From assembly GCA_030635025.1 (NCBI GenBank), contig DAOVZQ010000001.1:1-27301 (forward strand): a stretch of 27,301 nt of DNA, written 5' to 3'. The position numbers and the translations under genes were made by a program. Shown one piece after another: positions 5,438 through 21,530 of this stretch (position 1 is its first letter; every line of letters starts with the position of its first letter). Below the pieces are notes generated by a model, which saw nothing but the letters and a program-made list of their open reading frames with translations, was not told where the DNA came from and made no database searches. This stretch comes from a bacterium. Its GTDB lineage: Bacteria; Krumholzibacteriota; Krumholzibacteriia; LZORAL124-64-63.

Positions 5438-5451
5438 ATCAGCCTGTCCTG

Positions 5452-8755: not shown

Positions 8756-9697
8756 CTACGCCTGGAGGGCGTTCGTGAGCCGGTAGCCGGAGCCAGCGGT
8801 GACGACCTTCTGGTCGTACCAGTGGTTCAGGCGGATCATGTCGGAGATCCGCTCGTCGTCTCGCCAACGACTGACGAGTCGGCCTGCGACCGCGTTCGGA
8901 GACCCATTCCACGCAAACGTCTGGGCCATCGAGTTGCTGCGAATGCCGAGCGCCTCGACGAAGCCGATGTAGACCGTGTCGCTCCAGATCGACGACATGG
9001 AGGCTGCGGCCCCCTTGGCCGACGTGTTTTTCTTCGCCGATGCCACAACAACGCGGTCGACGTTGAAAATCTGTGCGATGGTGGCCTCGTTGACGACGGT
9101 CGGGCGGTCGATACTGCCGGTCGCCTTCGCGCGGTCCACGATCAACGGATGATCTTGGAGCGCCTCGAACACGTCGATGTCCATCCCGATGACGTTCGGC
9201 TGCTTGCCGGTGGCGTCGCGGATGGCCTTGGTGCCGACCTTGACCTCGGCAATCGGATCGCCGGTGTCTTCGTCCCACCCCGCCGTCAGGGCGGTGGTGG
9301 CCGTAACGCCGGCGTCGATGGCGACCTTGAGTGCGATCTCCCTGTCGACGCCGATCATCTCCGTAAGGAAATTCACAACGCCAATTTCGTCGTTGATCGG
9401 CACGTCCGCGTTCTGCAAGACCTCGTCGGGGAGGGGCTCGGTGAGCGCGTGGTCGTTGGCAGAGTAACTGCCGGTCGTGAAGTGCCGCGTCACGACCTCG
9501 GCCTTCGTCCCGGGCGCGCGGTTCGTGGCTTGCTGGCGCGCCGCCTCTCTCAGGACGTCGTTGATGAAATAGACATCCGATTGCTTGACAACCGCAATGC
9601 TCGGCGCCAACGCGTCAGCCATGAAAACGCCGTTCGCGAACTCAATCGAGACGTTGGTGAGCGCTGCATCTTCGTGTACTTCTTTCAGATCTGGCAT
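8756..9697 (-). CDS. Major capsid protein (HK97 fold, capsid-E/Mu gpT-like group)
   Basis: 313 aa. HEDAALTNVSIEFANGVFMADALAPSIAVVKQS start and DPIAEV..TGKQPNVIGMDIDVFEALQDHP segment are typical of this MCP group; follows protease and cement genes. Confidence 0.92.
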   Translation of the reverse strand: MPDLKEVHEDAALTNVSIEFANGVFMADALAPSIAVVKQSDVYFINDVLREAARQQATNRAPGTKAEVVTRHFTTGSYSANDHALTEPLPDEVLQNADVPINDEIGVVNFLTEMIGVDREIALKVAIDAGVTATTALTAGWDEDTGDPIAEVKVGTKAIRDATGKQPNVIGMDIDVFEALQDHPLIVDRAKATGSIDRPTVVNEATIAQIFNVDRVVVASAKKNTSAKGAAASMSSIWSDTVYIGFVEALGIRSNSMAQTFAWNGSPNAVAGRLVSRWRDDERISDMIRLNHWYDQKVVTAGSGYRLTNALQA

Positions 9698-9720: not shown

Positions 9721-10125
9721 TTAGGCGATGGAGCGCTCGGACCCAGGCGGCAACACGAAGACGGGAATGAGTTCCCCGGCTGTCGTAGACGCCGCAAGGG
9801 CGATGGCGAAGATCTTGTCCAGGTCGGTGGTCGACTTGACGCCGCGCCCGCTGGCATCGGCCAACAGGTAGTCGCCAGCCGCAATCGCGCCAGCGTTACC
9901 ATCCACCGTGCACCAGGTCTTGCCGTAGACGACAACCTCAACGTCTTTGTTGGCCTCGGTCGTGGTCTGGCCGGTGACGCCAAAGACCTGCTCGCCAGCG
10001 CCGACAAGGTCAACCGAGACCTTCGTGGCGTCGGTGTTTGTGGTGTCCAGTTCCACCGCAAAATACCGAGCAATAGCGACCCCGGATGTGGCAGGAATGG
10101 AGATGTTTGCATTGCCTTCAGCCAT
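9721..10125 (-). CDS. Capsid cement / decoration protein (DUF2190-like)
   Basis: 134 aa, VFGVT...KDVEVVVYG...AGAIAAGDYLLADASGRGV...AIALAAST.AGELIPVFV; between scaffold and MCP. Confidence 0.8.
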   Translation of the reverse strand: MAEGNANISIPATSGVAIARYFAVELDTTNTDATKVSVDLVGAGEQVFGVTGQTTTEANKDVEVVVYGKTWCTVDGNAGAIAAGDYLLADASGRGVKSTTDLDKIFAIALAASTTAGELIPVFVLPPGSERSIA

Positions 10126-10191: not shown

Positions 10192-10650
10192 CTACGACTT
10201 CTTCGGGCCGAGCGAGCGGAGGGCATCCGTGTAGGAAGTCCCGTCCTTGGCGGCCTTTTCCTTGGCGGCGGCGTCCAGTTGACTCCGGTCGTTGAGATCC
10301 GGGGTCCCTTCGTCATCGCCCATGCCTTTGACCTCGCCGCCCTTCTCTTCGGCGAAGGTCATGCCCAGCGCGACATTCTCGATCGCACCGGCCACGCCCT
10401 CGTCGGTCTCGGCGTCGGCGAACTGTTCGCGAAGTTTGGTCTTGGCGTCGTCGGGCAGTTCGGCATTGGCGATAGCGTCCTCGATCTTCTGGGACATTTC
10501 CGCCTTGGCCTTGTCTGCCTCGAACGCGTCCACCTTCGCGGTGAGTTCGGCAACTTCGCCGTCCTTCGTGTCCAGAGCGGCCTTGAATTCGTCCCGCTCC
10601 TTTGTGGCTACGTCCAGGTCGGCCTGGAGAGCCTCTTCTTTGTCCGCCAT
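10192..10650 (-). CDS. Nested scaffolding protein from an internal in-frame start, 152 aa
   Basis: GAGGAGACTATCATG: strong RBS before in-frame Met388, exactly where the coiled coil MADKEEALQADLD begins; analogous to Mu I/Z and lambda C/Nu3. Confidence 0.65.
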   Translation of the reverse strand: MADKEEALQADLDVATKERDEFKAALDTKDGEVAELTAKVDAFEADKAKAEMSQKIEDAIANAELPDDAKTKLREQFADAETDEGVAGAIENVALGMTFAEEKGGEVKGMGDDEGTPDLNDRSQLDAAAKEKAAKDGTSYTDALRSLGPKKS

Positions 10651-11811
10651 GATAGTCTCCTCGTGTTGCTCTTGGATTTCCTGGACGATATCGGGCCGAG
10701 CCCGCGTGAACGTCTCCAGGTCGATCTCGGACAGATTGATGGCCTGTCCAGCCGTTACTGCCTTCTCGATCCACTCGGGGACCGTCTCGCCGAGGGCCTC
10801 GTAGTCCGTGGCGAGCTGCGCAGCGGCGTAGCGCGCCAGATCAGCGTCCTTGCACATCTCGGCGACCTTGGCGTGCTGTTCCCCGAACCCGCCGGGCGTG
10901 TAGTGCGCGACGGCCTGGCCAAGGCGCTCCTTGGTCGGCCCGCTGTCCTTGTCCTCCCATGTCCGCAGGGCCCAGGTGGTCGGGTCGTTTTCGTCCAGAG
11001 CCAATGCGAAGGCCCCGCGCGGCAGCGGCTTGCCGTCGATGACGACCACGGACTCGTTCATCTTGACGGCCGCCGGGATCTCGTCCTCGGGGACCCCGAT
11101 GGAGCGATAGGCCGAGCGGATGGTCCGCTTGACCCCGGCCACGGCGTTGCTCGGAACCTCGGTGCGGCGGCCGTGAAAGCCCTGGGGCGAGAACGCGGCG
11201 GCGGCCCGGCCCAACTGCGTGCGGGTGACCTTGTCCTCGGTGTTCTCCCAGAGCCGCAACCGCCAGCCGCTTGAGTCCTCGGCGTCGGGGACGTAGGCGA
11301 AGGCCTCGGCGGGGAAGGCTTGGCCGGCCTCGCTCTTTGTCTCCTGGAGATCCTCGGCCGATTCGGCATCAAAATCGAAAGAGTCATACTTGCCGTCCGC
11401 CCCGTCATCGGAAAACGCAATCTTCCGCATCCCCTTGACGTGAGGAACGCCTGCGCCCAAGAACGTCACGGCGCGCAAGCCGACGGGGTCGTGCCAAACC
11501 TCGATAGACCGCGTTTTGTATCGCCCAGCCTTCACGGCTTCCATCAGATCCGTGGCCATGCCTGTCAGGCGGGCAAAAATGCTGTTGCCCCGGCGCTCAA
11601 TCTTCTCGACCCACCCCGCCGCAGGGCCTTCTTGGGCATGGTCAAGGGTCACGGGCGCTTCATGTTGGGCCGGGTTGTACCCCTGCGCCATGGCGTCGAG
11701 ATCCTTTCGGCCGAACTTGCCCTTGTAGCCATAGTCACCCGTGCGGAAGATCTCAACATCGTGAAACGCCGCGCTCAGATCGTTGGCCTTACCCTTTTCG
11801 TCGTCAGGCAT
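10192..11811 (-). CDS. Mu gpI-like prohead protease fused to scaffold, 539 aa
   Basis: Start MPDD at 11811 with GAGGAG RBS. VEIFRTG, EAPVTLDH..GPAAGWV, YKTRSIE and LRAVTFLGAGVPHVKGM motifs; acidic coiled-coil C-terminus. Confidence 0.85.
   Translation of the reverse strand: MPDDEKGKANDLSAAFHDVEIFRTGDYGYKGKFGRKDLDAMAQGYNPAQHEAPVTLDHAQEGPAAGWVEKIERRGNSIFARLTGMATDLMEAVKAGRYKTRSIEVWHDPVGLRAVTFLGAGVPHVKGMRKIAFSDDGADGKYDSFDFDAESAEDLQETKSEAGQAFPAEAFAYVPDAEDSSGWRLRLWENTEDKVTRTQLGRAAAAFSPQGFHGRRTEVPSNAVAGVKRTIRSAYRSIGVPEDEIPAAVKMNESVVVIDGKPLPRGAFALALDENDPTTWALRTWEDKDSGPTKERLGQAVAHYTPGGFGEQHAKVAEMCKDADLARYAAAQLATDYEALGETVPEWIEKAVTAGQAINLSEIDLETFTRARPDIVQEIQEQHEETIMADKEEALQADLDVATKERDEFKAALDTKDGEVAELTAKVDAFEADKAKAEMSQKIEDAIANAELPDDAKTKLREQFADAETDEGVAGAIENVALGMTFAEEKGGEVKGMGDDEGTPDLNDRSQLDAAAKEKAAKDGTSYTDALRSLGPKKS
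10762..11319 (-). repeat. Tandem ~87-aa protein domain repeat inside the protease/scaffold
   Basis: Repeat 1 (aa 165-250) and repeat 2 (aa 262-350) share 19 identities over the first 47 ungapped positions. Confidence 0.75.
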
Positions 11812-13489
11812 CGTCTGTCTCCTCTTGGTCGCCGTCGGCCGCCCCTGTTTCATCGTCGGGGGCGCTATCGGGCTCATTCTTGGCTCGCAACGTCTGTGTC
11901 AGCGCCTGCACGCTCTCGCGCATCGCAAGGTATCCCTCGGCGCTCGACATGCCGGGCTCGTCGTCATCCTCGGTGGCCTCTGCTTCCACGTCGTCGGGGT
12001 TCTCGACCCCCATGAGTGTCAGGGTGAGCCGCCGCACCTGCTCGTCGCCCTGGAGCCCCAGGGCTGTGGCCGCCGCCGCAACGGCCTTCAGTCGCTCGGC
12101 CGCCTCTTCCTCTTCCACCGGCGCGGCGAGGATGGTGACATTGTTGCTCCCGGTGTCGCTCCCCGCCGACTGCTCGAGCGCGAACTCGGAGATCAGCGCA
12201 TAGGTGTCGGTCAGCAACTTCTGGTACGCGGAGAACATCCGGATCATCGGCCCGACCATGGCCGTCGCGGTCGCCAGGCGGAACGATTCGCCGGCCCCCA
12301 GGTAGATTGGGAAGATCCCGGCATAGAGGCCGCACGCCTGGAGGAGTTGGCCCCCGTCCTTGATGGCGTCGCCCCCGCCGGTCTCCTGCTTGATCTCGAC
12401 GGGCGCCACAGCCTGGTTGTGTACCTCTTCGGACCCGTAGGCGTGCGGTGGGTTCGTGTCCGTGCGATCGGTCGCGGTGATCGTCGAATCACGGGCCGCG
12501 ACGAAGTTCGCCACATCTGTCGGGCCGCCCTTGATAGCCGTCTTGGTGATAAACTGGGCGCGGGCCTGCTGGATCGCCGACCGGGCCTTCATGAACTTCA
12601 GGAACAGGAACGCCCAGTCCATGCAACCGGCCAAGACGGACAGCCCCGTGCTGTCGAACCCTACGGCGTTGAACATCAGGTGATAGACGGCGGCCTTCTC
12701 GGTAAATCGGACCTTGCTGCCGTGTGTGACCTTCACCGTGCCGTCCTCGGCGACATTCACCGCGTGGGCGTTCTCGGCGAGCGTCGTGTCTTCCGTGACG
12801 GTCACGTTCTTTTCCCGGAAGGCGTCGAGGGACAGATAGAGCCACGTGGTCTTCTTCTGGGCCTTGTCAACCGTCTCGCGGACGTAGAGCCATACCTCGT
12901 CCGAGTCCTCGGGGTTCGAGATAGTGCCGACCATCTGCAGTGAATCGATGACCCGGACCTTGACCACCCCGTTGGTCACGAACAGCGCATAGTACAGGTT
13001 GCCGTCCACCAGGGTGCGGTCCGAGTTGCGGCGCTGGCCGAAGGAAGAGAGCTGCAGGCGGTTTGCCGGGTGTTCCCAGAAGGCGTCGAGTGTGTCCTGT
13101 TTGCCCTCTTCCTCGGCCTTGTGGGCCACAATCCCGTTCCCGATGCTGTAGTCTGTCCACATCCGGACGATCTGATGGGAGGGCCCATCCCAGCGGAAGA
13201 ACTTGCGGGCGCGCTGCGCCACCTTTTTGTTCGTGAGCGAGCTCGCCGCGTCGCCCCGCCCGGTCAGACCCGCAAACAACCTCTCGCTCGTTTGGCGGAA
13301 TTCCTGGTACTCAGCGTCGACGCGCATCAACAGGGCATCGCGGTCGGACACGGCGCCGCCCGCAGTCGAAGCCATCTCGACCGTGGCGGCCGTGTCGGAC
13401 ATAGCGGTCGCGGGAGCGGCCTTGCCCTTCTTGCGGGGGGTGCGTTTTGTGGTCGTTTTCGCCATCGTTTGCGCTCTTGGTGCTCGCAT
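11804..13489 (-). CDS. Portal protein
   Basis: About 560 aa (alternative start 13465) directly upstream of and overlapping the protease; helical/beta pattern, FWEHPANRL..LVDGNLYYAL segment, acidic disordered tail. Called mainly from size and synteny. Confidence 0.8.
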   Translation of the reverse strand: MRAPRAQTMAKTTTKRTPRKKGKAAPATAMSDTAATVEMASTAGGAVSDRDALLMRVDAEYQEFRQTSERLFAGLTGRGDAASSLTNKKVAQRARKFFRWDGPSHQIVRMWTDYSIGNGIVAHKAEEEGKQDTLDAFWEHPANRLQLSSFGQRRNSDRTLVDGNLYYALFVTNGVVKVRVIDSLQMVGTISNPEDSDEVWLYVRETVDKAQKKTTWLYLSLDAFREKNVTVTEDTTLAENAHAVNVAEDGTVKVTHGSKVRFTEKAAVYHLMFNAVGFDSTGLSVLAGCMDWAFLFLKFMKARSAIQQARAQFITKTAIKGGPTDVANFVAARDSTITATDRTDTNPPHAYGSEEVHNQAVAPVEIKQETGGGDAIKDGGQLLQACGLYAGIFPIYLGAGESFRLATATAMVGPMIRMFSAYQKLLTDTYALISEFALEQSAGSDTGSNNVTILAAPVEEEEAAERLKAVAAAATALGLQGDEQVRRLTLTLMGVENPDDVEAEATEDDDEPGMSSAEGYLAMRESVQALTQTLRAKNEPDSAPDDETGAADGDQEETDDA

Positions 13490-13518
13490 TCCGCCTCAGC
13501 GGTTCCCGACGGTGGGGA

Positions 13519-14574
13519 TCAAGCCTCAGGTTCCACCTCTTGCTCGCCGGGCGGTGGTCTCAGAATCGGCTCGACGATGAGCCCGATGACCGCGGTGGTC
13601 CCCACCAGCCGAAGAAATGATTGCTGGCCGGCCGGACTCACGCCCTCGGCGACCGATGCCCTTGTGGCGCCGAGGGTCACGATTGAGCAGCGGCAACGGG
13701 GATGTCCCGGCGTGTTCGTATGCCCAGAACCGAACGCCCCCCGGATATCGATCCGCCCATCCGCCTCGTTGGGCTCACAGATCTGCTGAGACACTCGATC
13801 ATCGCCCACGGTGATCCACGTCTTCTGCGTGGAACCGAGCGACAACCCTTTCTCAAGGGCCGCGGTGGACATCATCGAGTTCATCTCGGTGTTGGCTATC
13901 AGCGCCGCCCGGTCGTCGCTGAAACTGTCGAACTTGGCGCGCAGGGCCCGCGCCACGTCTGCCACGCCCCTGTTTTTCTGGCGGAGGGCCCGTGCGATGG
14001 TCTCCGACAACTCTGTCAGCGACGTTTCGTCGAGCCCGACCACCCGGCCGGTGGACCACGCGCGGGCAAACTGGCGGATCTCTTCGGGTACAGGCAGGTC
14101 GCGGATGCCAGGAATCACCTCGACGAATCGGGCGGGGCAGGAAAACTGGGGCACCTCAGGCGCAGGCAGGCCGAACTCCTTGACAGCGGCGTCCTGGACC
14201 TGGCGGGCGGACTCGGTGTAGGCGACGGCCCCGTTCTCAGAGAGCAGGGTCTCCAGCCGGTCGGACAGCGCATCGACGGACGGGGAGATGATGGCCCGCG
14301 CCTGCTGCTCGATCTGGGCGACCTCTCCATCCGATGCCTCGCGGTCGGAGGGGATCACCTGGGCCCACTGGGCGGACAGGGCGGCGATGGACCGGCGTGG
14401 CATAGCCCGCTCGAGGGCCCGGAAATACCGCTGGAGGCGCTCGGTGGTCGCGTTGACGATCCGCCGGCCGTTGCGGCTCGACACGGACCCCGGTACCTCG
14501 GCCGACGTTTCGTCGAGGAAGGCGCGGAGATCCTGGACAAGGCCTGCGGGGTCTGGGGGGGCGGCGATTACCAT
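13519..14574 (-). CDS. Head morphogenesis protein (SPP1 gp7 / Mu gpF-like)
   Basis: RAALIANTE, KTWITVGDDRV..IC..NE and PGHPRCRCSI motifs; ATG 14574 overlaps the upstream TGA. Confidence 0.88.
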   Translation of the reverse strand: MVIAAPPDPAGLVQDLRAFLDETSAEVPGSVSSRNGRRIVNATTERLQRYFRALERAMPRRSIAALSAQWAQVIPSDREASDGEVAQIEQQARAIISPSVDALSDRLETLLSENGAVAYTESARQVQDAAVKEFGLPAPEVPQFSCPARFVEVIPGIRDLPVPEEIRQFARAWSTGRVVGLDETSLTELSETIARALRQKNRGVADVARALRAKFDSFSDDRAALIANTEMNSMMSTAALEKGLSLGSTQKTWITVGDDRVSQQICEPNEADGRIDIRGAFGSGHTNTPGHPRCRCSIVTLGATRASVAEGVSPAGQQSFLRLVGTTAVIGLIVEPILRPPPGEQEVEPEA

Positions 14575-14912
14575 CAAGGGGTCCCGTGTGGTGTCTGAAT
14601 ATGGGCCGTGACGGCGTCGACCAAGCGGTCAACGGTCTTGCTCTGCGCTTCGGCAGCTGCGGCCGTCCGGGCGGCGTCGACGGATATGTCCAGTATGGCT
14701 TTCTGCATCGCCTGCCGGTCAGAGTCGGTTTTCACCGAAAGAGAGTCGATGGCAGCGGTATTCACGGCGATAGTCGTCGTCTGCGTGGTCTCCCGCGCCT
14801 CATCTGCGACCGCCGGGTCCCGTATTGCCCCGAAGAGCGCAAGTGCGGCCACGAGAAAGGCTCCGATTCCTGCGGTGGTGTTCTTGGCAACCTGCTTCGC
14901 CTTGGGAGACAT
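14574..14912 (-). CDS. Single-TM coiled-coil protein (holin-like or exported; uncertain)
   Basis: AGIGAFLVAALALFGAI hydrophobic segment followed by Ala-rich helices; AGGA RBS. Confidence 0.5.
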   Translation of the reverse strand: MSPKAKQVAKNTTAGIGAFLVAALALFGAIRDPAVADEARETTQTTTIAVNTAAIDSLSVKTDSDRQAMQKAILDISVDAARTAAAAEAQSKTVDRLVDAVTAHIQTPHGTP

Positions 14913-14948
14913 TCGCCATCCTGTCCTGACAGTGGTGGTCTGACATGG

Positions 14949-14988
14949 AAAAACGCCCCTGCCTCCCCGGGTGGGGAAACAGAGGCGT
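14949..14988 (-). terminator. Intrinsic terminator-like hairpin
   Basis: ACGCCTCTGTTTCCCC-ACCC-GGGGAGGCAGGGGCGT (16 bp with G-U pairs) followed by a short U run. Confidence 0.6.
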
Positions 14989-15042
14989 CGGCTCTTTGGC
15001 CGGGGCTTCTGGTCTTGCTATGTCACGTGCCGAGAGGGGCTG

Positions 15043-15222
15043 TTAAGCGTCTTCCGGCTTCGTGGTCTCCTCAAACTCGGCGAGAGTAGCCAACACGGAC
15101 TTGACGTTGCCAGCCAAGTTTTGCAGTTGCCGCACAACCGCGCCCAAGACTTTCATCGACTCCTGGATCGCCGCGCCCTCCTGTGTTGCATGGGTGTCGC
15201 CTTTGGATGCTTTCGCCATCAT
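15043..15222 (-). CDS. Small helical hypothetical protein, ~59 aa
   Basis: MMAKASKGDTHATQEGAAIQESMKVLGAVVRQLQNLAGNVKSVLATLAEFEETTKPEDA; amphipathic heptads. Confidence 0.55.
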   Translation of the reverse strand: MMAKASKGDTHATQEGAAIQESMKVLGAVVRQLQNLAGNVKSVLATLAEFEETTKPEDA

Positions 15223-15243
15223 GCGTTCGCCTTGTCGGTGGTT

Positions 15244-15309
15244 GGGGGTCGGCCGGCCCGAAGGGGGTGAGTCGGGGAGGATGCCGACTCGTCTCGGGGG
15301 CCGACCCCC
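15244..15309 (-). promoter_or_regulatory. Branched GC-rich RNA structure in an intergenic leader
   Basis: Perfect 11-bp arms GGGGGTCGGCC/GGCCGACCCCC enclose a 7-bp hairpin GAGTCGG/CCGACTC and a CC-TTCG-GG mini-loop. Confidence 0.45.
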
Positions 15310-15344
15310 GTAGGACTCTACCCGTAACGCATGGGCGGGGGCGG

Positions 15345-15350
15345 TGTCAA
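15345..15350 (-). promoter_or_regulatory. Possible sigma70 -35 hexamer TTGACA
   Basis: Perfect TTGACA overlapping the TGA stop of the 696-aa gene; no convincing -10 at 17 bp. An inverted copy lies at 15360..15365. Confidence 0.25.
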
Positions 15351-17437
15351 GGGGTTTCTTTGACAGTCTCGACAGGGCCCACGACGCACGTCGCCGTTTC
15401 GCCGACACATACAGGCAACCCCAGCACGCTCGACAGCCACGTTTGGTCCACAAGTCGCCCGTTCGCCGCGTCCACCGTGCTTCTGAACCACTCGCCAACC
15501 TGGGCGTGGTCGAAAAGCATGCGCCAATCGCTGCTCGTGAAGTGCAAGGCGGCTGGGGGTTTCCCGTGCGTTTCTCTGAACAGGGCGATAGCGCCCTCAA
15601 TGTCATACTGCAAGTCCGTCGCAGGACAGCCCCAGCAACTCGTGTTGATGGGGATTTCGTTCCGGCCGGACTCGGGCTTCTCGTTCTCTTCGACGGACCC
15701 CTGTTCCCTCGCCAACGCTTCCCCGTACGCCACGAGATGCTCGGGGGTGCGGTACATGAGGATTATGATCCCTTCGCAGCAGGGGTGGATCTCTACCAAA
15801 AGGTGCCAGTGCGGCCCCCCTTGCTTTTCTACCCTCATACTCAGAACGAACTGGTCGTCAAGCCACGCGTTTGTGCCATCCTTGTCGATATCGGAATACA
15901 TGGCGTGCCATGTGTCTTGATCGACTGCCACGACGGTCGGAGATTCGCCGACGGTGGCGTCCATCTCGAAGCACCCTTGCGCCAGGTTCTCGATCCAGCG
16001 GGAGTCGTACGCGATATGCCACACGCAACCGGCGCCGCGATAGGCCGGGGCGAAAGAGGGGGCCATGTCTGACGGAGTGGGGGACGTTTCGACCGGCCCA
16101 ACAATCTCCGACTGGGGCTCCCTATAGAGCACCCGCACAACCTCGGGCACATCCTCTTCGAGGACGATGTCCATGGGAAAGGCGCCTGCGGAGCCGGGCA
16201 GGCGGAACACAGCAGGGCCTTTCGTCGCGTCACCTTGATGGCCCTTGGCAAACTGGGCGCTTAGCTCGCTATCGCGCTCCATGCCCCAGATCGCCAACTG
16301 GTAAAGGCCTCTGTCGATGACGAGCGTGTTGGGCATCCCCTTATCGGCCTCTGGCATCGCGTCGAACGCCTTCTTGATCTTGGGGACGAGGGTGTCCTTC
16401 GCCGGGTCGTGTTCAGAGGTCCTTGGGATGAACTCCCCGCAGATCTCATGGTCCGCGCCGACGAGGCAGCAGCCCGGACTGGCGTGGCCGAATGTCTCAC
16501 AATCGCCACACGTCTTCGGCCCTTTCCACTCGCCACAGCCGCCCGTGTGGTTGATGTCCTGCGCGCACGGGGTGTCGGGGCGCGGCGGGTTGTCTTTGAG
16601 CGTGCACGTGTCGCATGAGCCGAAGGGCGTGGGCGGGTCTTCGGGGTCCGTGTCGGCCCCGCCGAGTTCGTCGCGAATCTGCTCGAGGTCGCGGCGGACA
16701 ACGTCCAGTTCGGCCAGCAGCGTCGCATTGGCTTCTTGCAGTTCCAGGTTCGCCTCCTGAAGTTCGACCAACAACTCTCTGGTGGCGGTCAAGGCCTCCT
16801 CGACAAGCCGTTGGTGAGGGCCCTTGGGCTGCCCCTCTTCAACCACTCGCCGCTCAATCTCGCGCACCTTGTCGGCGATGTTTTCCGGGAGCGGGTCCAC
16901 GATGTCGAGCGCGACCGCCGTCGTGGTCTCGGGCGCTTCTTTTGCGGGGTCCACGCCCTGGAGGACGTTCAACGGGTGGTCTTCCGGCAACGGCTCGACA
17001 AAGTCGTCTGGCATCTTCTTTGCCCGATCCGCCTCTCGCAAAAGAGCCTCCTCGGCTTTCAACCTTTCCTGAGCCTGCCTCTCCGCCTGTGCGGCCCGCG
17101 CGCTCCAGTCGGGGAACCAGACGACCTGGGTCAGGCGGTTGACGTGGGCGCCCTTGTACTCGTCGCCCTCGAAGAAGACCTGGCTGATCAGCGTCTGAAA
17201 CGCACTGCGCGCGACATCGCTGGCCGGCGTCGAGTCGTTGAAGTTGTCGCGGAGCGAAAGGTACAGCGATTGTCCTGGCTGCGAGCTGGCCGGCGCGTCC
17301 CGCTGATCCTTGAAGCACGCGACGTGCCAGTCCATCAGCCCGAAGCACTGGTACCACCGCGCCACCTCCTCCTGGAATATCTGGTACGCCTGGTCCCGGC
17401 CGTCGCTTTCCTTCAGGGCTTGCTGGTCGTCTGTCAT
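15347..17437 (-). CDS. Mosaic hypothetical protein, 696 aa, with coiled coil, Cys repeats and a C-terminal capsid-protein-like domain
   Basis: ATGA-coupled to the upstream gene; the last ~95 aa align without gaps to MCP 9035..9277. Confidence 0.75.
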   Translation of the reverse strand: MTDDQQALKESDGRDQAYQIFQEEVARWYQCFGLMDWHVACFKDQRDAPASSQPGQSLYLSLRDNFNDSTPASDVARSAFQTLISQVFFEGDEYKGAHVNRLTQVVWFPDWSARAAQAERQAQERLKAEEALLREADRAKKMPDDFVEPLPEDHPLNVLQGVDPAKEAPETTTAVALDIVDPLPENIADKVREIERRVVEEGQPKGPHQRLVEEALTATRELLVELQEANLELQEANATLLAELDVVRRDLEQIRDELGGADTDPEDPPTPFGSCDTCTLKDNPPRPDTPCAQDINHTGGCGEWKGPKTCGDCETFGHASPGCCLVGADHEICGEFIPRTSEHDPAKDTLVPKIKKAFDAMPEADKGMPNTLVIDRGLYQLAIWGMERDSELSAQFAKGHQGDATKGPAVFRLPGSAGAFPMDIVLEEDVPEVVRVLYREPQSEIVGPVETSPTPSDMAPSFAPAYRGAGCVWHIAYDSRWIENLAQGCFEMDATVGESPTVVAVDQDTWHAMYSDIDKDGTNAWLDDQFVLSMRVEKQGGPHWHLLVEIHPCCEGIIILMYRTPEHLVAYGEALAREQGSVEENEKPESGRNEIPINTSCWGCPATDLQYDIEGAIALFRETHGKPPAALHFTSSDWRMLFDHAQVGEWFRSTVDAANGRLVDQTWLSSVLGLPVCVGETATCVVGPVETVKETP

Positions 17438-17913
17438 CGGTCTTCGTCCTTTCGTTTGGGTGCGCGGTTCTTGTCTTCGGCGAGGTCGGCCTCAAATTGC
17501 GCCGTCCGAGACGTTGGTACATACGAGCATCCCGGCACGCCGTGGTCGGATAGGCAGCGCCAATCCTCCTCGGAAATCCCTGACAAGGCCGCATCGATAG
17601 CAGCGATCCTTCTGCCGAAGGCCTCAATGAGAAGCGACTGGTGGTCGCCTATGCGCGCCTGTTCCGCGCGCGCCCGGACTACGGTTGTGTTGATCTGTGT
17701 TTGAGCGGCGTTCACTATCGCCTGGTTAGCGAGTTCCCCGAAGACAAACGCATTGATGTCTTCCTGCGTGTGGAAGGGGCGCGGACTCGCAGTGAGCGCC
17801 GGGGTCTCTTCGGGCGGAACTGGGGGGCGCGTTGCCCTTCCGATTCCGAAACCCAACCCGCCGCCTACCAACACGGCCACGATGCAGATGGCTATCCTTT
17901 CGCTCGTTTTCAT
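17434..17913 (-). CDS. Membrane-anchored hypothetical protein, 159 aa
   Basis: ATG 17913 in ATGA overlap with GGAG RBS; IAICIVAVLVGGGLGFGIG TM, Pro-rich linker, helical region. Confidence 0.65.
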   Translation of the reverse strand: MKTSERIAICIVAVLVGGGLGFGIGRATRPPVPPEETPALTASPRPFHTQEDINAFVFGELANQAIVNAAQTQINTTVVRARAEQARIGDHQSLLIEAFGRRIAAIDAALSGISEEDWRCLSDHGVPGCSYVPTSRTAQFEADLAEDKNRAPKRKDEDR

Positions 17914-18434
17914 CGGTCTCCCTTTCCTGTTTCGTTCTCGTCTTTGGGTTGACGCGGGGTCCAGCACGGGCAGTCTTTGCCGTCGTTTTCGCCTTGGCTA
18001 TCCCCAGCCTCCACCTCAACCCCGTCTGGGACCGGCCCCCTGCAATGCCCCATCTTACCCAAGATCGAGTCGAACCAATACTTCTCCCAGGTCCCACAAG
18101 TCCCACACCGCCTATCCTGCGGCGGGATAGGAATCTTGAGAGCCTTCTCGGCCTCTTTGGGATCATCCAGCACGAACCGCGCAAGATCCGTGTCGGGCAC
18201 ATGCCGCAGACGGCCCGAAACCATGACGCCTTTGAGGTCTATCTGCGCGGGCAAATCATCGATGGAGACGGAGACTTGCCACGAATCGAAAGAGAGGCCG
18301 ATTACCCTCTTGTCAGCACAGCCTGGTCCGTAGTTCCCGTAGTTTTCGCGCATCTCGATGAACATCTCCCCGTCTCGCGTCGCGGGGCCGATAGTCACCG
18401 AGATCGGGAACTTCATGTTGGTTCCAGCCATCAT
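17910..18434 (-). CDS. Hypothetical protein with C-terminal Cys cluster, 174 aa
   Basis: GGAGGAG RBS before ATG 18434; CGTC...C...CPCW. Confidence 0.65.
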   Translation of the reverse strand: MMAGTNMKFPISVTIGPATRDGEMFIEMRENYGNYGPGCADKRVIGLSFDSWQVSVSIDDLPAQIDLKGVMVSGRLRHVPDTDLARFVLDDPKEAEKALKIPIPPQDRRCGTCGTWEKYWFDSILGKMGHCRGPVPDGVEVEAGDSQGENDGKDCPCWTPRQPKDENETGKGDR

Positions 18435-18441
18435 GCTCCTC

Positions 18442-18714
18442 CTATCCGTCTTCCCTCTCATACACAAGCCGCCCGTCGAGCCAGACCGCCGAGGGTTCGC
18501 CGGGCGTGACGGACTCGATGAACCTCCTCGCGCGCTCGATCTCCTCGAGGCGCCGCGTCTTGCCCTGCTGCCGAGGCGAAACGACATGGGCCGTCTTGCC
18601 GGTTGGGGAACACGCCCCCGACAGGGAAGCCAGGGCGGCATCCAGATCCGCCCTCGGGTCACGCCGCCGCCTCTTCGTGTACCGCGCGGTGATCTCGGGG
18701 TGGGGGTCAGTCAT
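18442..18714 (-). CDS. Hypothetical protein, ~90 aa, with a Walker-A-like VVSPRQQGKT
   Basis: ATG 18714 in ATGA overlap with the upstream stop; GAGG RBS. Confidence 0.55.
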   Translation of the reverse strand: MTDPHPEITARYTKRRRRDPRADLDAALASLSGACSPTGKTAHVVSPRQQGKTRRLEEIERARRFIESVTPGEPSAVWLDGRLVYEREDG

Positions 18715-19007
18715 GTACCAGTCCTCACTATCACGCATCGGCATGACCCGTGTTTTGGCGCCGGTGGCCCAGGGAATCGTTTTGCGAGCGCTATTTCTCG
18801 CGCGTGCGCCATGCCATAGGATGGCCCATACCGCTCTTGAGTGAGTTGGTCGATGGCTTCTGCCAGGATTTCCTCCACGGCCCTCTCGGGATAGTCAGGA
18901 TGTAAAGACTGCGCATCGCAGACGGCCCTCTCCCAAGCCATCTCTGGGGAGAGCCATTCCGGCAGGTTGTTGATAATCTCGGTGACAGATCCAGTCATGG
19001 CCTTCAC
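18711..19007 (-). CDS. Hypothetical protein, ~95 aa
   Basis: GTGA/ATGA overlaps at both ends; acidic helical core. Confidence 0.55.
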   Translation of the reverse strand: MKAMTGSVTEIINNLPEWLSPEMAWERAVCDAQSLHPDYPERAVEEILAEAIDQLTQERYGPSYGMAHAREIALAKRFPGPPAPKHGSCRCVIVRTGT

Positions 19008-19207
19008 CTTCTCCAGTCAGCGTGTTCCTCGATCTCGGCAACACGTTTCTGAAGCGCTTGGATCTTCCTGAGGTGCGCCCGCACGAAAAGCGCTGGTAGG
19101 GAAGTGAATGTGCCTAAAGCCCAAGCCACCGCAACGATCAAGATCGCTATTGCGAGATCCATCAACAGGAACAGAAAGACGAGCGGAACCACGTCACGCC
19201 ATTCCAT
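19004..19207 (-). CDS. Small membrane protein, 67 aa
   Basis: MEWRDVVPLVFLFLLMDLAIAILIVAVAWALGTF long hydrophobic stretch, then a short coiled coil. Confidence 0.55.
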   Translation of the reverse strand: MEWRDVVPLVFLFLLMDLAIAILIVAVAWALGTFTSLPALFVRAHLRKIQALQKRVAEIEEHADWRR

Positions 19208-19415
19208 CTCGGGCCTCCCTCTCAGCCTTCCCCCACGCAATCCACAGATCCGTGAGCCGCGCCTCAACAGCCGGGTGGCAGCGGTCCCCGTTCGGCTTGA
19301 ACCATGCGCCCCGACTGTATCCGAACTCCATCGGCGCGGCGACGCCACGGACCTTGACCGTCACGCTCTGGAGGACGCCGTCCCTTACGTTCGCGGCTGT
19401 GATCTTCATGGGCAT
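19194..19415 (-). CDS. Hypothetical protein, 73 aa
   Basis: Strong AGGAGGAGGAG RBS before ATG 19415. Confidence 0.6.
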   Translation of the reverse strand: MPMKITAANVRDGVLQSVTVKVRGVAAPMEFGYSRGAWFKPNGDRCHPAVEARLTDLWIAWGKAEREARDGMA

Positions 19416-19582
19416 GGGGTGGGCTCCTCCTCCTTTAGAAACGCCCGCCGAAGGGTGAGGCGTGCGTTTACCCTCCAAATCAACCGCGCCATTCGGCGCT
19501 TGAGCCTGTTCCGCGCCAGCCACCTCTGCCCCGCAGGCTCTCTGAGCCACCTCGCATCGTCTTCTTCTTTTTGGCCTGCCAT
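19406..19582 (-). CDS. Arg-rich hypothetical protein, 58 aa
   Basis: ATG 19582 two nt after the HTH stop; GGGAG RBS. Confidence 0.5.
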   Translation of the reverse strand: MAGQKEEDDARWLREPAGQRWLARNRLKRRMARLIWRVNARLTLRRAFLKEEEPTPCP

Positions 19583-19583
19583 G

Positions 19584-19772
19584 CTACTCCCCCTTGCCCC
19601 TCTTCCTCTCCTCAATGAACCGGCGGATGTCCTCCGGGTCGTATCGGATGGCCCGCCCGATCTGGACGAAGGCGAGCCCGTACCGCCCGGTCCGCCGCCA
19701 GATAGCCAGCGTGCCGGGCCGGACGCCGAGCATCTCCGCCGCCTCGTCCGTTCTGATCAGGTTGCCCGCCAT
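19584..19772 (-). CDS. Excisionase/MerR-like helix-turn-helix protein (HTH_17-like), 62 aa
   Basis: LIRTDEAAEMLGVRPGTLAIWRRTG...FVQIGRAIRYDPEDIRRFIE is a classic winged-HTH excisionase pattern. Confidence 0.85.
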   Translation of the reverse strand: MAGNLIRTDEAAEMLGVRPGTLAIWRRTGRYGLAFVQIGRAIRYDPEDIRRFIEERKRGKGE

Positions 19773-19798
19773 GGTGGGTGCGCCTCCGTGTCTCTGGG

Positions 19799-19828
19799 CA
19801 CATAAGCACACGTCGCGGCGCATGTCAA
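19799..19828 (-). promoter_or_regulatory. Possible promoter at the end of terL
   Basis: TTGACA (19823..19828) immediately after the terL TAG, then TTATGT at 17 bp or TATGTG at 18 bp; upstream of the HTH gene. Confidence 0.35.
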
Positions 19829-21244
19829 CTACAAATCGAAGTCCGCGGCCATCAGGTTGTCGAAGTCGGTCAGGGAGTCGTAGACCTTGACGCTGGTCGT
19901 CGGCTCGGGCCGCTGCAGGGCGGTCAGTGCCCACACAAGGGCGTCCAGGCGGTCAGGGGAGTCCATGCCTGTGTTGGGTTGCCAGTCGCACATCTGGGCC
20001 TCGAGCACGCCGAACTTGCCCACATGGTGGACGCGGCGCTGTTCGTACAGCATCGAGATCGGTTCGGCCCGCGTCGCCTTGCCCCTGGATGCGTGGACGG
20101 CCTTAAACGGGATGTTCGGGTCTTCAGTGTGGATGGCCATCTCGATGAGATCGCCGCCGTTGTTGACCTCACCGATCATGCAGTTCACCCGATGCGCGTG
20201 AAAGGTCCCTATAGAGGCCTCGGCCCACTCTTGGGGGCGCCCCCTCAGCGACGCGTCGTCGAAGACGTAGTATTCGCCATGGCCGTTCGTGGCCGCGGTC
20301 ACGATGCCGGTCTCGCTCGATGTCTCTTTGGCAGAGACGGCTGGGTCTACGCCAACAACGGCGTAAGTCATGCCAGGCAAAAGCCTCTGGACAAGGGCGT
20401 CGAGTTCCTTTTTTCCCAGGTCCCCACCCATCCGGGTCTCGTCGATCCACGCGCGTTGCCACAGGGCGTTCGGGTTGTCTTCCAAGAGTTCGGCATGCAG
20501 TTCCTGCCGGCCACGGCGCGTCCCCTCGTACTTGTTCAGCAAGTGGGCGAGATATTTGGGGGCGAGGTGCGCGCGGTTCTCATACGTGTTGCCGGTTGTC
20601 AGCACAGTGTTCGGATCATCGCTACGCGCATCCTTGACCAACTGGCGCATGATCGGCACGTTCTGGGGCGTGGTCGTGACCATGACCTGGGGATTGTCGC
20701 CCTCGCGCAGGCCCATGATAAGGCCATCATCCCACGCTTCTTCCGCATACCTCCACTTCGCTACCTCGTCAGCCCAGGCGCGATCATGCCCCGGCCCCCG
20801 CAACTGGCCCGGCTCTTGTCCTGAGTAAGTCGTGGCTATAGCGCCGTTCGGCCACGTCAACTGGCGGTTGGTCCACTGGTACTCGGGCATGAAATCTGGC
20901 GGGCTGTTCTGGAGTATGCCACCCGGCCCTTCGACCAACACCTTGCGGGCATCGGCGGCCGTCTCAGCAACGAGCGCGATGTTCTTGCACTCCCCCTTGC
21001 GCACCCCATCGATGATCCACTCGGCGCCGGCCCGCGTCTTCCCCGACCCTCGGCCAGCCATGAAGAGCCAGACGAACCAATCGCCCTCGGGCGGCAACTG
21101 GTTCGGCCTGGCCCAGAAGGTCCAGTCAAAGGACAGCGCCTCGAGTTCGTCGGGGGTCAGTTTCTTGAGGATCTTCGCGGAGACCTCGGGCGGCATCTCC
21201 GCCAGGTCGGCGAAGGTGGGGAGGGCTGTGGGGGCGGGGGTCAT
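19829..21244 (-). CDS. terL: Terminase large subunit
   Basis: DWTFWARPNQLPP start motif, Walker A AGRGSGKT, LRGP, Walker B AWADE, nuclease VVGVDPA and SPDRLDALVWA. Start ATG 21244 lies 1 nt after the upstream stop. Confidence 0.95.
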   Translation of the reverse strand: MTPAPTALPTFADLAEMPPEVSAKILKKLTPDELEALSFDWTFWARPNQLPPEGDWFVWLFMAGRGSGKTRAGAEWIIDGVRKGECKNIALVAETAADARKVLVEGPGGILQNSPPDFMPEYQWTNRQLTWPNGAIATTYSGQEPGQLRGPGHDRAWADEVAKWRYAEEAWDDGLIMGLREGDNPQVMVTTTPQNVPIMRQLVKDARSDDPNTVLTTGNTYENRAHLAPKYLAHLLNKYEGTRRGRQELHAELLEDNPNALWQRAWIDETRMGGDLGKKELDALVQRLLPGMTYAVVGVDPAVSAKETSSETGIVTAATNGHGEYYVFDDASLRGRPQEWAEASIGTFHAHRVNCMIGEVNNGGDLIEMAIHTEDPNIPFKAVHASRGKATRAEPISMLYEQRRVHHVGKFGVLEAQMCDWQPNTGMDSPDRLDALVWALTALQRPEPTTSVKVYDSLTDFDNLMAADFDL

Positions 21245-21245
21245 T

Positions 21246-21530
21246 TCAAGGCAGGCCGACGGGGCGCCTCTCCTGCCGAGCAGGATCTCGGCGAAACTGA
21301 AAGCCCCTCTTGGGGTGAACGCCATGCGATCTCAGCAACCGCCGTAGCGCCTGGTCTCGGCCTTTCTCGGTCCGGTATCTGTGCCAGACGCACCACGGGT
21401 CCCACCGGTCTTCCCTGTGTTTCTTGTAGTCGCAGAACGGCCACTTCTCTCGACACCAGATCAGGAAGTGCCCGACCGGCCTCTTGCGCTTTGGCCTCAT
21501 GTCTGGCGGGCGTTCTTCCTCGGGCCTCAT
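21246..21530 (-). CDS. Basic Trp-rich hypothetical protein, 94 aa
   Basis: ATGA overlap at its start; stop abuts the terL start. Confidence 0.5.
   Translation of the reverse strand: MRPEEERPPDMRPKRKRPVGHFLIWCREKWPFCDYKKHREDRWDPWCVWHRYRTEKGRDQALRRLLRSHGVHPKRGFQFRRDPARQERRPVGLP

What the first reader, a model, noticed from the sequence alone, without database searches (positions are those of the whole stretch)
15392..15634. A non-structural protein ends in a copy of part of the major capsid protein
Seen: WGCPATDLQYDIEGAIALFRETHGKPPAALHFTSSDWRMLFDHAQVGEWFRSTVDAANGRLVDQTWLSSVLGLPVCVGETA aligns without gaps over 81 aa to MCP WDEDTGDPIAEVKVGTKAIRDATGKQPNVIGMDIDVFEALQDHPLIVDRAKATGSIDRPTVVNEATIAQIFNVDRVVVASA (9035..9277). 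There are 13 identities, including W, D, R..GK.P and L.DH, plus many conservative changes. Inference: this is the A-domain region, which forms capsomer centres in the HK97 fold. A free copy could bind or poison capsid assembly of competing phages, alter capsid size as MCP-derived satellite Ccm proteins do, or decoy capsid-sensing immunity.
Basis: partly seen in the sequence, partly recalled or inferred. Interest (0 to 1): 0.75.

Follow-up and report, generated by a model that had tools for sequence, protein, structure and literature searches.

The report
Orphan phage protein with capsid-like repeats
A 696-residue phage protein with no relatives in any database searched ends in three diverged tandem modules, each faintly but specifically resembling one piece of the phage's capsid protein family; this is unusual if real, but no reliable fold prediction could be made.

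Summary
The alignment is in the sequence as described, on the minus strand: 81 residues, no gaps, 13 identities. BLASTP alone does not support it (E 2.2). Family-level tests do.

- **Forward test:** a 91-sequence capsid-family HMM scores the C-terminus highest of 28,064 natural non-capsid windows in the whole MAG.
- **Three modules:** the same capsid region also matches two upstream segments. The C-terminal half is therefore three tandem modules of about 100-130 aa.
- **Profile against profile:** P about 1e-4 and probability 42-56%. No other of 21 phage protein families matches.
- **Reverse test:** an HMM built from the modules alone finds capsid proteins as its top 12 hits in related phages. 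In the MAG its best non-self hit is the phage's own capsid protein.

It is not a recent copy: the resident capsid protein ranks 7th of 91, and nucleotide identity is 36%. The gene lies in a roughly 4.5-kb accessory block that five related phages lack.

The protein is a complete orphan, so AlphaFold failed (pLDDT 34) and the fold is unverified. I put the odds of true relatedness at about 65%. Function is unknown, and capsid poisoning or decoy roles are untested. Notes from this scan on other DNA describe capsid-fold domains in plasmid membrane proteins; that is a different thing.

The parts
15347..17437 (-). Gene for the 696-aa orphan protein (P0005). Very acidic (net charge -61), with 19 Cys. 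Its start overlaps the stop of the upstream ORF by 4 nt.
   Evidence: ORF list and translation. Coding-type GC pattern by codon position: 0.65/0.45/0.79. The same 696-aa gene was called on an ENA contig. No homologue among 5.8e9 clusters or 1.84e9 representatives. Composition.
15350..15652 (-). Matches capsid protein aa 140-215/221.
   Evidence: Capsid HMM 8.1 bits, i-E 7e-5, HMM positions 156-220. Top natural non-capsid window in the MAG. hhalign P 0.0039. Its only PHROG hit is phrog_29, major head protein, E 0.2.
15653..16042 (-). Module 2 (aa 466-595). Its first ~42 aa (473-514) match the same capsid region.
   Evidence: Capsid HMM 2.8 bits, HMM positions 150-191, reached by 1 of 3000 shuffles. 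As a natural window it scores 4.3 bits. hhalign top hit is capsid aa 140-182, P 0.21.
16058..16429 (-). Module 1 (aa 337-460). Residues 352-380 match capsid aa 150-178. Like module 3 it ends in a VGPVET motif.
   Evidence: hhalign P 0.0043. Capsid HMM -0.9 bits, HMM positions 160-185, shuffle p 0.02. The VGPVET repeat was found by local alignment. MAFFT alignment A3.
15494..15637 (-). Core motif of module 3 (aa 601-648): W, helix, G-x-x-P loop, hydrophobic strand, then a helix starting D-W. This is the part shared by all three modules and the capsid family.
   Evidence: Profile against profile, 48 aligned columns, capsid aa 140-186. Robust to module boundaries.
16418..16651 (-). Cys-rich segment (aa 263-340) with 9 Cys, including two CxxC pairs. 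Possibly metal-binding.
   Evidence: Cys positions. Only a weak phrog_38300 hit, E 0.052. No Pfam hit.
16652..17107 (-). Acidic, probably coiled-coil segment (aa 111-262).
   Evidence: Sub-threshold coiled-coil-type Pfam hits HalX and XRCC4_CC at aa 212-260. Net charge -17.
17108..17437 (-). N-terminal region (aa 1-110) with no recognisable family.
   Evidence: No Pfam or PHROG hit at E<=10 for aa 1-130.
8756..9697 (-). Major capsid protein gene (313 aa), lambda gpE type, HK97 fold.
   Evidence: phrog_1005 E 8e-57. Homologues carry PF03864. AlphaFold pLDDT 81.5. Foldseek hits 3bjq and phage capsids.
9035..9280 (-). Capsid protein aa 140-221: the first part of the A-domain (helix 148-163, strand 169-173, helices 174-181, 184-193 and 204-211, strand 215-219). 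This is the region matched by the modules.
   Evidence: Secondary structure of the model. Alignments.
15347..19828 (-). Accessory block of about 4.5 kb between terL (19829-21325) and the 112-aa ORF, MuF and portal genes. It holds P0005 and several small orphan ORFs.
   Evidence: PHROG and Pfam annotation of neighbours. Five relatives have terL followed directly by a ~310-aa protein and a 465-560-aa protein in the portal position, with 5.5-6.6 kb from terL to the capsid gene against 10.1 kb here.

Best explanation
P0005 is a lineage-specific accessory protein, encoded in a ~4.5-kb block inserted into the packaging and head operon of a tailed phage.

Shown:
- Architecture: an unrecognisable N-terminal region, an acidic coiled-coil-like segment, a Cys-rich segment, then three diverged tandem modules of about 100-130 aa.
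- Each module opens with the same signature: Trp, an amphipathic helix, a G-x-x-P loop, a hydrophobic strand, then a helix with an aromatic residue.
- That signature matches, specifically and reciprocally, the first helix-loop-strand-helix of the A-domain of lambda-gpE-type HK97-fold capsid proteins.

Inferred:
- The modules are old, fast-evolving relatives of that A-domain core, not a recent copy of the resident capsid gene. They may have been duplicated twice after a partial capture, or may descend from a free-standing ancestor.
- The gene is co-oriented with the head genes and coupled to the ORF upstream. It carries a scaffold-like acidic coiled coil and repeats a capsid surface element. 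The most likely role is therefore protein-protein docking during head assembly, either to the capsid protein's A-domain or to a partner that reads this element (scaffold, protease or cement protein). That would make it an optional head-associated or assembly-modulating factor. This functional step is a guess with no direct evidence.
For: - Forward test: the capsid HMM gives only two domain hits in P0005, both to HMM positions 150-220. The C-terminal window (8.1 bits) is the top non-capsid window of 28,064 natural windows.
- Three independent hhalign runs put modules 1, 2 and 3 on capsid aa 150-178, 140-182 and 140-215, in one register.
- MAFFT alone aligns the modules in that register.
- Module profile against capsid profile: score 35.1, P 1.1e-4, probability 56%. 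400 column shuffles reach at most 21.1, and the reversed alignment scores 12.7.
- Of 21 family profiles from related phages, only the capsid family hits (33.3, against 15.4 or less for the rest). That capsid set excludes the phage's own protein.
- The result holds for 4 of 5 ways of cutting the modules.
- Reverse test: an HMM of the modules finds capsid proteins as its top 12 of 986 ORFs (best E 0.0015). Its best non-self hit among 2,595 MAG ORFs is the phage's own capsid protein, aa 144-186.
- The only PHROG hit of module 3 is a major-head family, in the same register as the capsid protein's own hit.
- Secondary-structure elements of the low-confidence model of module 3 (H644-654, H665-672, E676-678, E683-685) coincide with the capsid protein's elements shifted by 461.
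- Accessory status rests; operon context.
Against: - All absolute scores are low: 8 bits, and an HH probability of about 50%. BLASTP gives E 2.2.
- The module HMM scores unrelated PDB proteins as high (13-14 bits: D-serine dehydratase and a Phd/YefM antitoxin, E 0.4-0.8) and finds no capsid protein there.
- If the three modules are homologous to each other, their three matches are not independent.
- Only about 48 columns align at profile level. The rest of the A-domain and the rest of the HK97 fold have no counterpart.
- No fold evidence: AlphaFold gave pLDDT 34. The Atlas gave nothing usable.
- A PF05065-type HMM gave nothing, but it also missed the true capsid protein, so it says nothing either way.
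- tblastn against 50,697 phage records gave no capsid hits.
- Nothing bears on function. The complex prediction gave no verdict.
Confidence: 0.5

Rival explanations
1. Chance or convergence. The C-terminal half is three repeats of a new domain unrelated to capsid proteins. Its helix / G-x-x-P / strand / helix signature resembles the capsid motif only because such short supersecondary patterns recur in many folds.
For: - BLASTP is not significant.
- hhalign probabilities for single modules are at most 9%.
- The module HMM reaches 13-14 bits on unrelated PDB proteins.
- A near-identical short motif occurs in a Phd/YefM antitoxin.
- Only 48 columns align.
Against: - The relation is reciprocal-best within the whole MAG.
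- It is specific among 21 families.
- Profile-level P is 1e-4, far above shuffles.
- The single PHROG hit is a capsid family in the same register.
- Secondary-structure elements coincide over the whole 81 aa of module 3.
Confidence: 0.3
2. The C-terminus is a recently captured copy of this phage's own A-domain, and it binds or poisons capsid assembly of competitors, resizes capsids like satellite Ccm proteins, or decoys capsid-sensing immunity.
For: - The similarity is to the capsid A-domain region.
- The gene is accessory.
- From my own knowledge, not checked in a paper here: capsid-derived Ccm proteins and capsid-sensing defences do exist.
Against: - The resident capsid protein is not the closest family member: rank 7 of 91 overall and 22 of 91 in the core.
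- Identity is 16% at amino-acid level (13 of 81) and 36% at nucleotide level.
- Ccm-type proteins are, as I recall, full-length HK97-fold proteins. Here no N-arm, E-loop or P-domain is detectable.
- The complex prediction did not reach the mark, which is not evidence either way.
- A decoy that resembles the trigger would be expected to set off a sensor rather than block it. This is my inference.
Confidence: 0.07
3. The modules are Phd/YefM-like (antitoxin N-domain fold) protein- or DNA-binding units, not capsid-like.
For: - The module HMM hits Rv2865, a Phd/YefM-family antitoxin (PDB 3g5o), at E 0.6.
- Module 3 has H-G-K-P-P-A-A-L against H-G-K-P-V-A-A-L in a YefM homologue from a related genome.
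Against: - hhalign of the module alignment against a 15-sequence YefM alignment: score 11.9, P 0.2. Only module 3 gives P 0.05, over 11 columns.
- Pfam PF02604 is not hit at E<=10.
- Modules 1 and 2 show no such likeness.
- The YefM alignment used has low diversity, so this test is weak.
Confidence: 0.05

Closest known systems
A-domain of lambda gpE-type HK97-fold major capsid proteins (Pfam PF03864; solved relative 3bjq, Bordetella prophage protein BB3626)
   Same: Shares the Trp, helix, G-x-x-P(N) loop, hydrophobic strand and aromatic-bearing helix, in the same order and spacing. For module 3, the following two helices and two strands also fall in the same places.
   Different: Only about 48-81 aa of a roughly 310-aa fold are present. 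There is no N-arm, E-loop, spine helix or P-domain. The unit is repeated three times in tandem inside a 696-aa acidic, Cys-rich protein. Identity is about 15-20%, and the fold is unverified.
Capsid-protein paralogues with altered roles: satellite Ccm proteins (SaPIbov5, EcCICFT073) and the T4 gp24 vertex protein. Recalled from my own knowledge, not tested here.
   Same: A second capsid-derived gene, encoded by a mobile element or phage, that acts on head assembly.
   Different: Those are full-length HK97-fold proteins that enter the lattice. P0005 has at most a sub-domain and could not occupy a lattice position.
Phd/YefM antitoxin N-terminal domain (Pfam PF02604; PDB 3g5o)
   Same: A short G-K-P-x-A-A-L strand followed by a helix with Trp/Tyr, as in module 3.
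   Different: No profile-level support (P 0.2). No toxin partner and no dimeric antitoxin architecture.
Phage scaffolding proteins (general class; recalled knowledge)
   Same: An acidic, coiled-coil-like segment, encoded in the head operon.
   Different: No sequence match to any scaffold family. The phage already has a protease/scaffold gene and a small gene that hits a head-scaffolding PHROG (phrog_673) and, weakly, a cement Pfam (PF09956).

Membership tests
HK97-fold major capsid protein (lambda gpE type, PF03864) | Significant match to the family profile over most of its length | tested here: not met
   The capsid HMM (320 positions) matches only positions 150-220, at 8.1 bits or less. Pfam gives no hit at E<=10.
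HK97-fold major capsid protein (lambda gpE type, PF03864) | Complete fold: N-arm, E-loop, P-domain with spine helix, and A-domain | tested here: not met
   No part of P0005 matches capsid profile positions outside 149-221. The modules are only 100-130 aa.
HK97 A-domain core (sub-domain likeness, not membership) | Profile-profile similarity to the first helix-loop-strand-helix of the A-domain (capsid protein aa 140-186), specific and reciprocal | tested here: met
   hhalign P 1.1e-4, probability 56%. Shuffle and family controls. Reciprocal HMM search. Robust to boundaries.
HK97 A-domain core (sub-domain likeness, not membership) | Predicted or solved 3-D structure superposes on the A-domain | tested here: inconclusive
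   AlphaFold single-sequence model has pLDDT 34.5, and no homologues exist to build an alignment. Only its local secondary-structure elements agree with the capsid model.
Satellite Ccm-type capsid-size redirecting proteins | Full-length HK97-fold homologue of the helper's capsid protein | tested here: not met
   As above, only a sub-domain-sized match. The definition of the family is from my own knowledge.
Phd/YefM antitoxin (PF02604) | Match to the family profile | tested here: not met
   No Pfam hit at E<=10. hhalign against 15 YefM sequences gives P 0.2. Only a weak PDB hit, E 0.6.
Virion structural protein of this phage | Presence in purified particles or proheads | not testable with these tools
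   Needs proteomics. Gene context is ambiguous: it sits in the head operon, but in a block that relatives lack.

The most novel reading that the evidence does not exclude
P0005 may be a free-standing, triplicated version of the HK97 A-domain core. Dimerised through its coiled coil, it would present six such modules as a mimic of a capsomer centre. That could nucleate, cap or block hexamer formation, or engage whatever reads capsomer centres (scaffold, cement or host capsid sensors). It would be the first capsid sub-domain known to be exapted as a repeat module outside a capsid protein, and a rare window on how the HK97 fold can be taken apart.
Probability: 0.07. Interest if true: 0.85.

Novelty: new variant of a known kind. 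Interest (0 to 1): 0.5.

Why it matters
As far as I know, HK97-fold capsid proteins occur as whole folds: capsids, encapsulins, and satellite or vertex paralogues. A sub-domain of the A-domain reused as a tandem repeat in a non-capsid protein would be new.

- It would show that part of the fold can exist and evolve outside the lattice. That bears on the origin of the fold.
- It would point to an undescribed way for a phage to act on head assembly or on capsid recognition.
- The case also shows how a total orphan, with no homologue among 15 billion proteins, can still be linked to a family through internal repeats plus a family profile.

The caveat is large: without a structure, this rests on sub-threshold sequence statistics.

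Tried and rejected
- **Homologue searches for P0005 found nothing.** Word-index search, exhaustive phmmer over 1.84e9 representatives, tblastn against 50,697 phage records for the whole protein and for modules, megablast of the region, a profile of the three modules against 5.8e9 clusters, and tblastn against 80 related-phage loci.
- **Family libraries.** Pfam and PHROGs on the whole protein and five pieces at E<=10 gave only phrog_29 (E 0.2) and phrog_38300 (E 0.052).
- **ESM Atlas.** No usable hit for the whole protein. For the C-terminus, only unnamed viral clusters at 0.88, below the 0.9 line.
- **AlphaFold** on aa 340-696 without an alignment: pLDDT 34.5, unusable for fold search.
- **Aligning the modules to capsid sequences as input for AlphaFold:** I did not do this because it would be circular.
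- **PF05065 (HK97-type) HMM** from 30 relatives' genomes: no signal on P0005, but none on the true capsid protein either, so the test has no power.
- **Phd/YefM rival:** not supported.
- **Complex prediction**, capsid protein plus aa 596-696: no verdict (0.30 against a mark of 0.32). This is not evidence for or against binding.
- **Pairwise Smith-Waterman between modules:** not significant (p 0.07-0.46). The repeat architecture rests on the shared register, the shared G-[PS]-V-E-[TE] end motif and the profile results.
- **Promoter and terminator scan of 14400-20000:** nothing above shuffles.
- **** timed out and was redone.
Full report
**1. What is there**

The finding is on the minus strand. 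window:15392-15634:- translates to the quoted 81 residues. These are aa 602-682 of a 696-aa ORF, P0005, at 15347-17437. window:9035-9277:- translates to aa 141-221 of a 313-aa ORF, P0006, at 8756-9697.

P0006 is the major capsid protein:
- It matches phrog_1005 at E 8e-57.
- Its homologues carry PF03864, the lambda gpE type.
- An AlphaFold model built on 50 sequences has pLDDT 81.5.
- Foldseek finds 3bjq first, then many HK97-fold capsids including lambda and HK97.

In that model the spine helix is 103-130. The matched stretch holds H148-163, E169-173, H174-181, H184-193, H204-211 and E215-219, which is the first part of the A-domain.

**2. Context**

The window is a whole 27.3-kb contig of a 2.9-Mb MAG, at 62% GC. 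The same sequence lies on a 36.8-kb ENA metagenome contig.

Reading down the minus strand, the genes are:
- terS, then a methyltransferase, an unknown ORF, and terL (19829-21325)
- an HTH/Xis-like ORF and four small orphans
- P0005, then a 112-aa ORF
- a MuF-like minor head protein, the portal, and a protease/scaffold
- a 134-aa protein that hits a head-scaffolding PHROG (phrog_673) and, weakly, a cement Pfam (PF09956)
- the capsid protein, then further unknown ORFs, a beta-helix/tail-spike-like protein and neck and tail-connector genes

P0005 has a coding-type GC pattern. Its start overlaps the stop of the upstream ORF.

Five IMG/VR phages share terL at 43-46% identity and the capsid protein at 31-33%. 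In them terL is followed directly by a ~310-aa protein (the MuF position) and a 465-560-aa protein in the portal position. The distance from terL to the capsid gene is 5.5-6.6 kb, against 10.1 kb here. P0005 therefore sits in a lineage-specific accessory block of about 4.5 kb. 'Accessory' is supported. 'Non-structural' is plausible but unproven.

**3. Is the similarity more than chance?**

Pairwise, it is borderline:
- BLASTP gives E 2.2 over 46 aa.
- The 81-aa ungapped score of +36 is the best diagonal of the pair. It exceeds all 300 shuffles (maximum 35).
- By my own Gumbel fit to the shuffle mean and sd, this is p of about 0.003 for this pair. It would not survive correction for all the pairs a reader could scan.

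I then built a 91-sequence capsid-family HMM from 11 database homologues plus 80 IMG/VR loci.
- Against full P0005 it gives exactly two domain hits. Both fall on HMM positions 150-220: aa 606-675 and aa 473-514.
- Cut out as a 101-aa piece, the C-terminus scores 8.1 bits (i-E 7e-5), reached by 0 of 3000 shuffles.
- The middle segment scores 2.8 bits (1 of 3000 shuffles).
- A third segment, aa 352-377, maps to HMM positions 160-185 (p 0.02).
- Shuffles flatter such tests, so I used natural sequence as the null. Among 28,064 windows of 101 aa from all 2,595 coding-like ORFs of the MAG, the P0005 C-terminus is the top non-capsid window (8.1 bits, next 7.4). The middle segment scores 4.3 bits; ORFs on 14 other contigs reach 4 bits or more.

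**4. Three modules**

hhalign of the 50-sequence capsid alignment against each segment separately returns the same capsid region as top hit, in one register:
- module 3: capsid aa 140-215, P 0.0039
- module 2: capsid aa 140-182, P 0.21
- module 1: capsid aa 150-178, P 0.0043

MAFFT, given only the three segments, aligns them in that same register. It also aligns a shared end motif, G-[PS]-V-E-[TE]-x(2,3)-P. Modules 1 and 3 both carry VGPVET.

The module profile against the capsid profile scores 35.1, with P 1.1e-4 and probability 56%, over 48 columns covering capsid aa 140-186.

Controls:
- 400 column shuffles of the module alignment reach at most 21.1, and the reversed alignment scores 12.7.
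- Of 21 protein-family profiles built from the related-phage loci, only the capsid family hits (33.3, P 2.4e-4). That set has 80 sequences and excludes this phage's own protein. All other families score 15.4 or less.
- The result holds for four of five ways of cutting the modules, including cuts defined without any capsid information (P 1.1-2.6e-4).

Reverse test. An HMM made only from the three modules was run against two sets:
- Against 986 ORFs of the related loci, its top 12 hits are all capsid proteins, at about residues 143-206 (best 14.7 bits, E 0.0015).
- Against the 2,595 MAG ORFs, its best non-self hit is this phage's capsid protein, aa 144-186 (10 bits, E 0.11).

Other supporting points:
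- The only PHROG hit of module 3 among 38,880 families is phrog_29, a major head protein (E 0.2), at profile positions 191-242. The capsid protein itself hits positions 170-264 with aa 122-215, which is the same register.
- The unusable AlphaFold model of aa 340-696 still places secondary-structure elements in module 3 at H644-654, H665-672, E676-678 and E683-685. The capsid protein's elements shifted by 461 fall at 645-654, 665-672, 676-680 and 683-685.

**5. What weakens it**

- Every absolute score is small.
- The module HMM reaches 13-14 bits on unrelated PDB proteins: D-serine dehydratase and the Phd/YefM-family antitoxin Rv2865 (3g5o), at E 0.4-0.8. It finds no capsid protein there. In a large database the signal would drown.
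- Module 3 carries a G-K-P-x-A-A-L motif almost identical to one in a YefM homologue. I tested that rival. hhalign of the modules against 15 YefM sequences gives P 0.2 and Pfam PF02604 is not hit, so it is not supported. It does show that such motifs recur.
- If the modules are true repeats of one another, their three capsid matches are not independent.
- Only the first ~48 residues of each module align at profile level.
- P0005 has no homologue anywhere. No alignment could be made, and AlphaFold gave pLDDT 34.5. The decisive fold test therefore could not be run.

I put true relatedness or fold equivalence of the module core and the A-domain core at about 65%.

**6. Not a recent copy**

- A distant IMG/VR capsid protein (L011) shares 15 of 47 residues.
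- Nucleotide identity of the two stretches is 36%.

The likeness is to positions conserved across the family (W141, G164, P167, L180, H183). That fits old divergence or convergence, not a fresh capture of this phage's own gene.

**7. Rest of the protein**

- aa 1-110: no family found.
- aa 111-262: acidic and probably coiled-coil (sub-threshold HalX and XRCC4_CC hits).
- aa 263-340: nine Cys, including two CxxC pairs.
- Overall: 19 Cys and a net charge of -61.

**8. Mechanism**

Shown: the architecture, the accessory position in the head operon, and the specific capsid-motif likeness.

Inferred: the modules are protein-docking units derived from, or sharing an ancestor with, the A-domain core. 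The protein probably acts on or rides with the assembling head. As far as I recall, Ccm-type proteins are whole HK97 folds, which P0005 is not. One complex prediction of the capsid protein with aa 596-696 gave 0.30 against a mark of 0.32. That is no verdict either way.

**9. Verdict**

The domain assignment is right and the similarity is probably real, but 'copy' and the proposed functions are unsupported.
- The finding is enlarged from one C-terminal stretch to three tandem modules.
- Novelty: a new variant of a known kind, namely a capsid sub-domain outside a capsid protein, pending a structure.

Earlier notes on this window (e1-5333785) had flagged the accessory block. I partly tested that by comparison with relatives. 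Notes on other DNA (e1-098058) describe capsid-fold domains in plasmid membrane proteins, which are full domains in host defence contexts and a different thing.

Noticed in passing
window 15347-19828 (-): A ~4.5-kb block of orphan ORFs (an HTH/Xis-like ORF, several small proteins of which some are Cys-rich, and P0005) lies between terL and the MuF and portal genes. Five phages with 43-46% identical terL have no such block.
   Followed up: partly
window 11804-14577 (-) and loci L008, L036, L062: The MuF-like minor head gene comes before the portal gene rather than after it. The same positional order (terL, a ~310-aa ORF, then a 465-560-aa ORF) is seen in three relatives whose ORFs I listed, though I did not annotate those ORFs.
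   Followed up: partly
window 10192-11877 (-) and 11804-13489 (-): By longest-ORF starts, the portal and the 561-aa protease/scaffold ORFs overlap by 74 nt. The ENA gene calls give 553 and 539 aa, so the true starts are uncertain.
   Followed up: no
window 9721-10125 (-) and 5452-6546 (-): Two proteins carry weak Phage_cement_2 (PF09956) hits: the 134-aa protein just upstream of the capsid gene, which is also phrog_673 'head scaffolding', and a 329-364-aa protein further downstream.
   Followed up: no
window 16418-16651 (-), P0005 aa 263-340: A Cys-rich segment with nine Cys, including two CxxC pairs. It has a weak hit to phrog_38300, of unknown function (E 0.052). It may bind metal.
   Followed up: no
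G000 contig C43:18710-19576 (locus L085): The MAG has a second, HK97-type (PF05065) capsid gene on another contig. This is probably another prophage or a GTA-like cluster.
   Followed up: no
loci L099, L101-L108 (relatives' genomes): Many PF05065 capsid matches in related genomes lie in open frames of 664-676 aa, with the capsid domain at about residues 295-657. This suggests fused protease/scaffold-capsid genes.
   Followed up: no
window 3521-5467 (-): A 648-aa acidic protein with beta-helix hits (NosD, Beta_helix; tail-spike phrog_7458) lies between the head genes and the neck genes.
   Followed up: no
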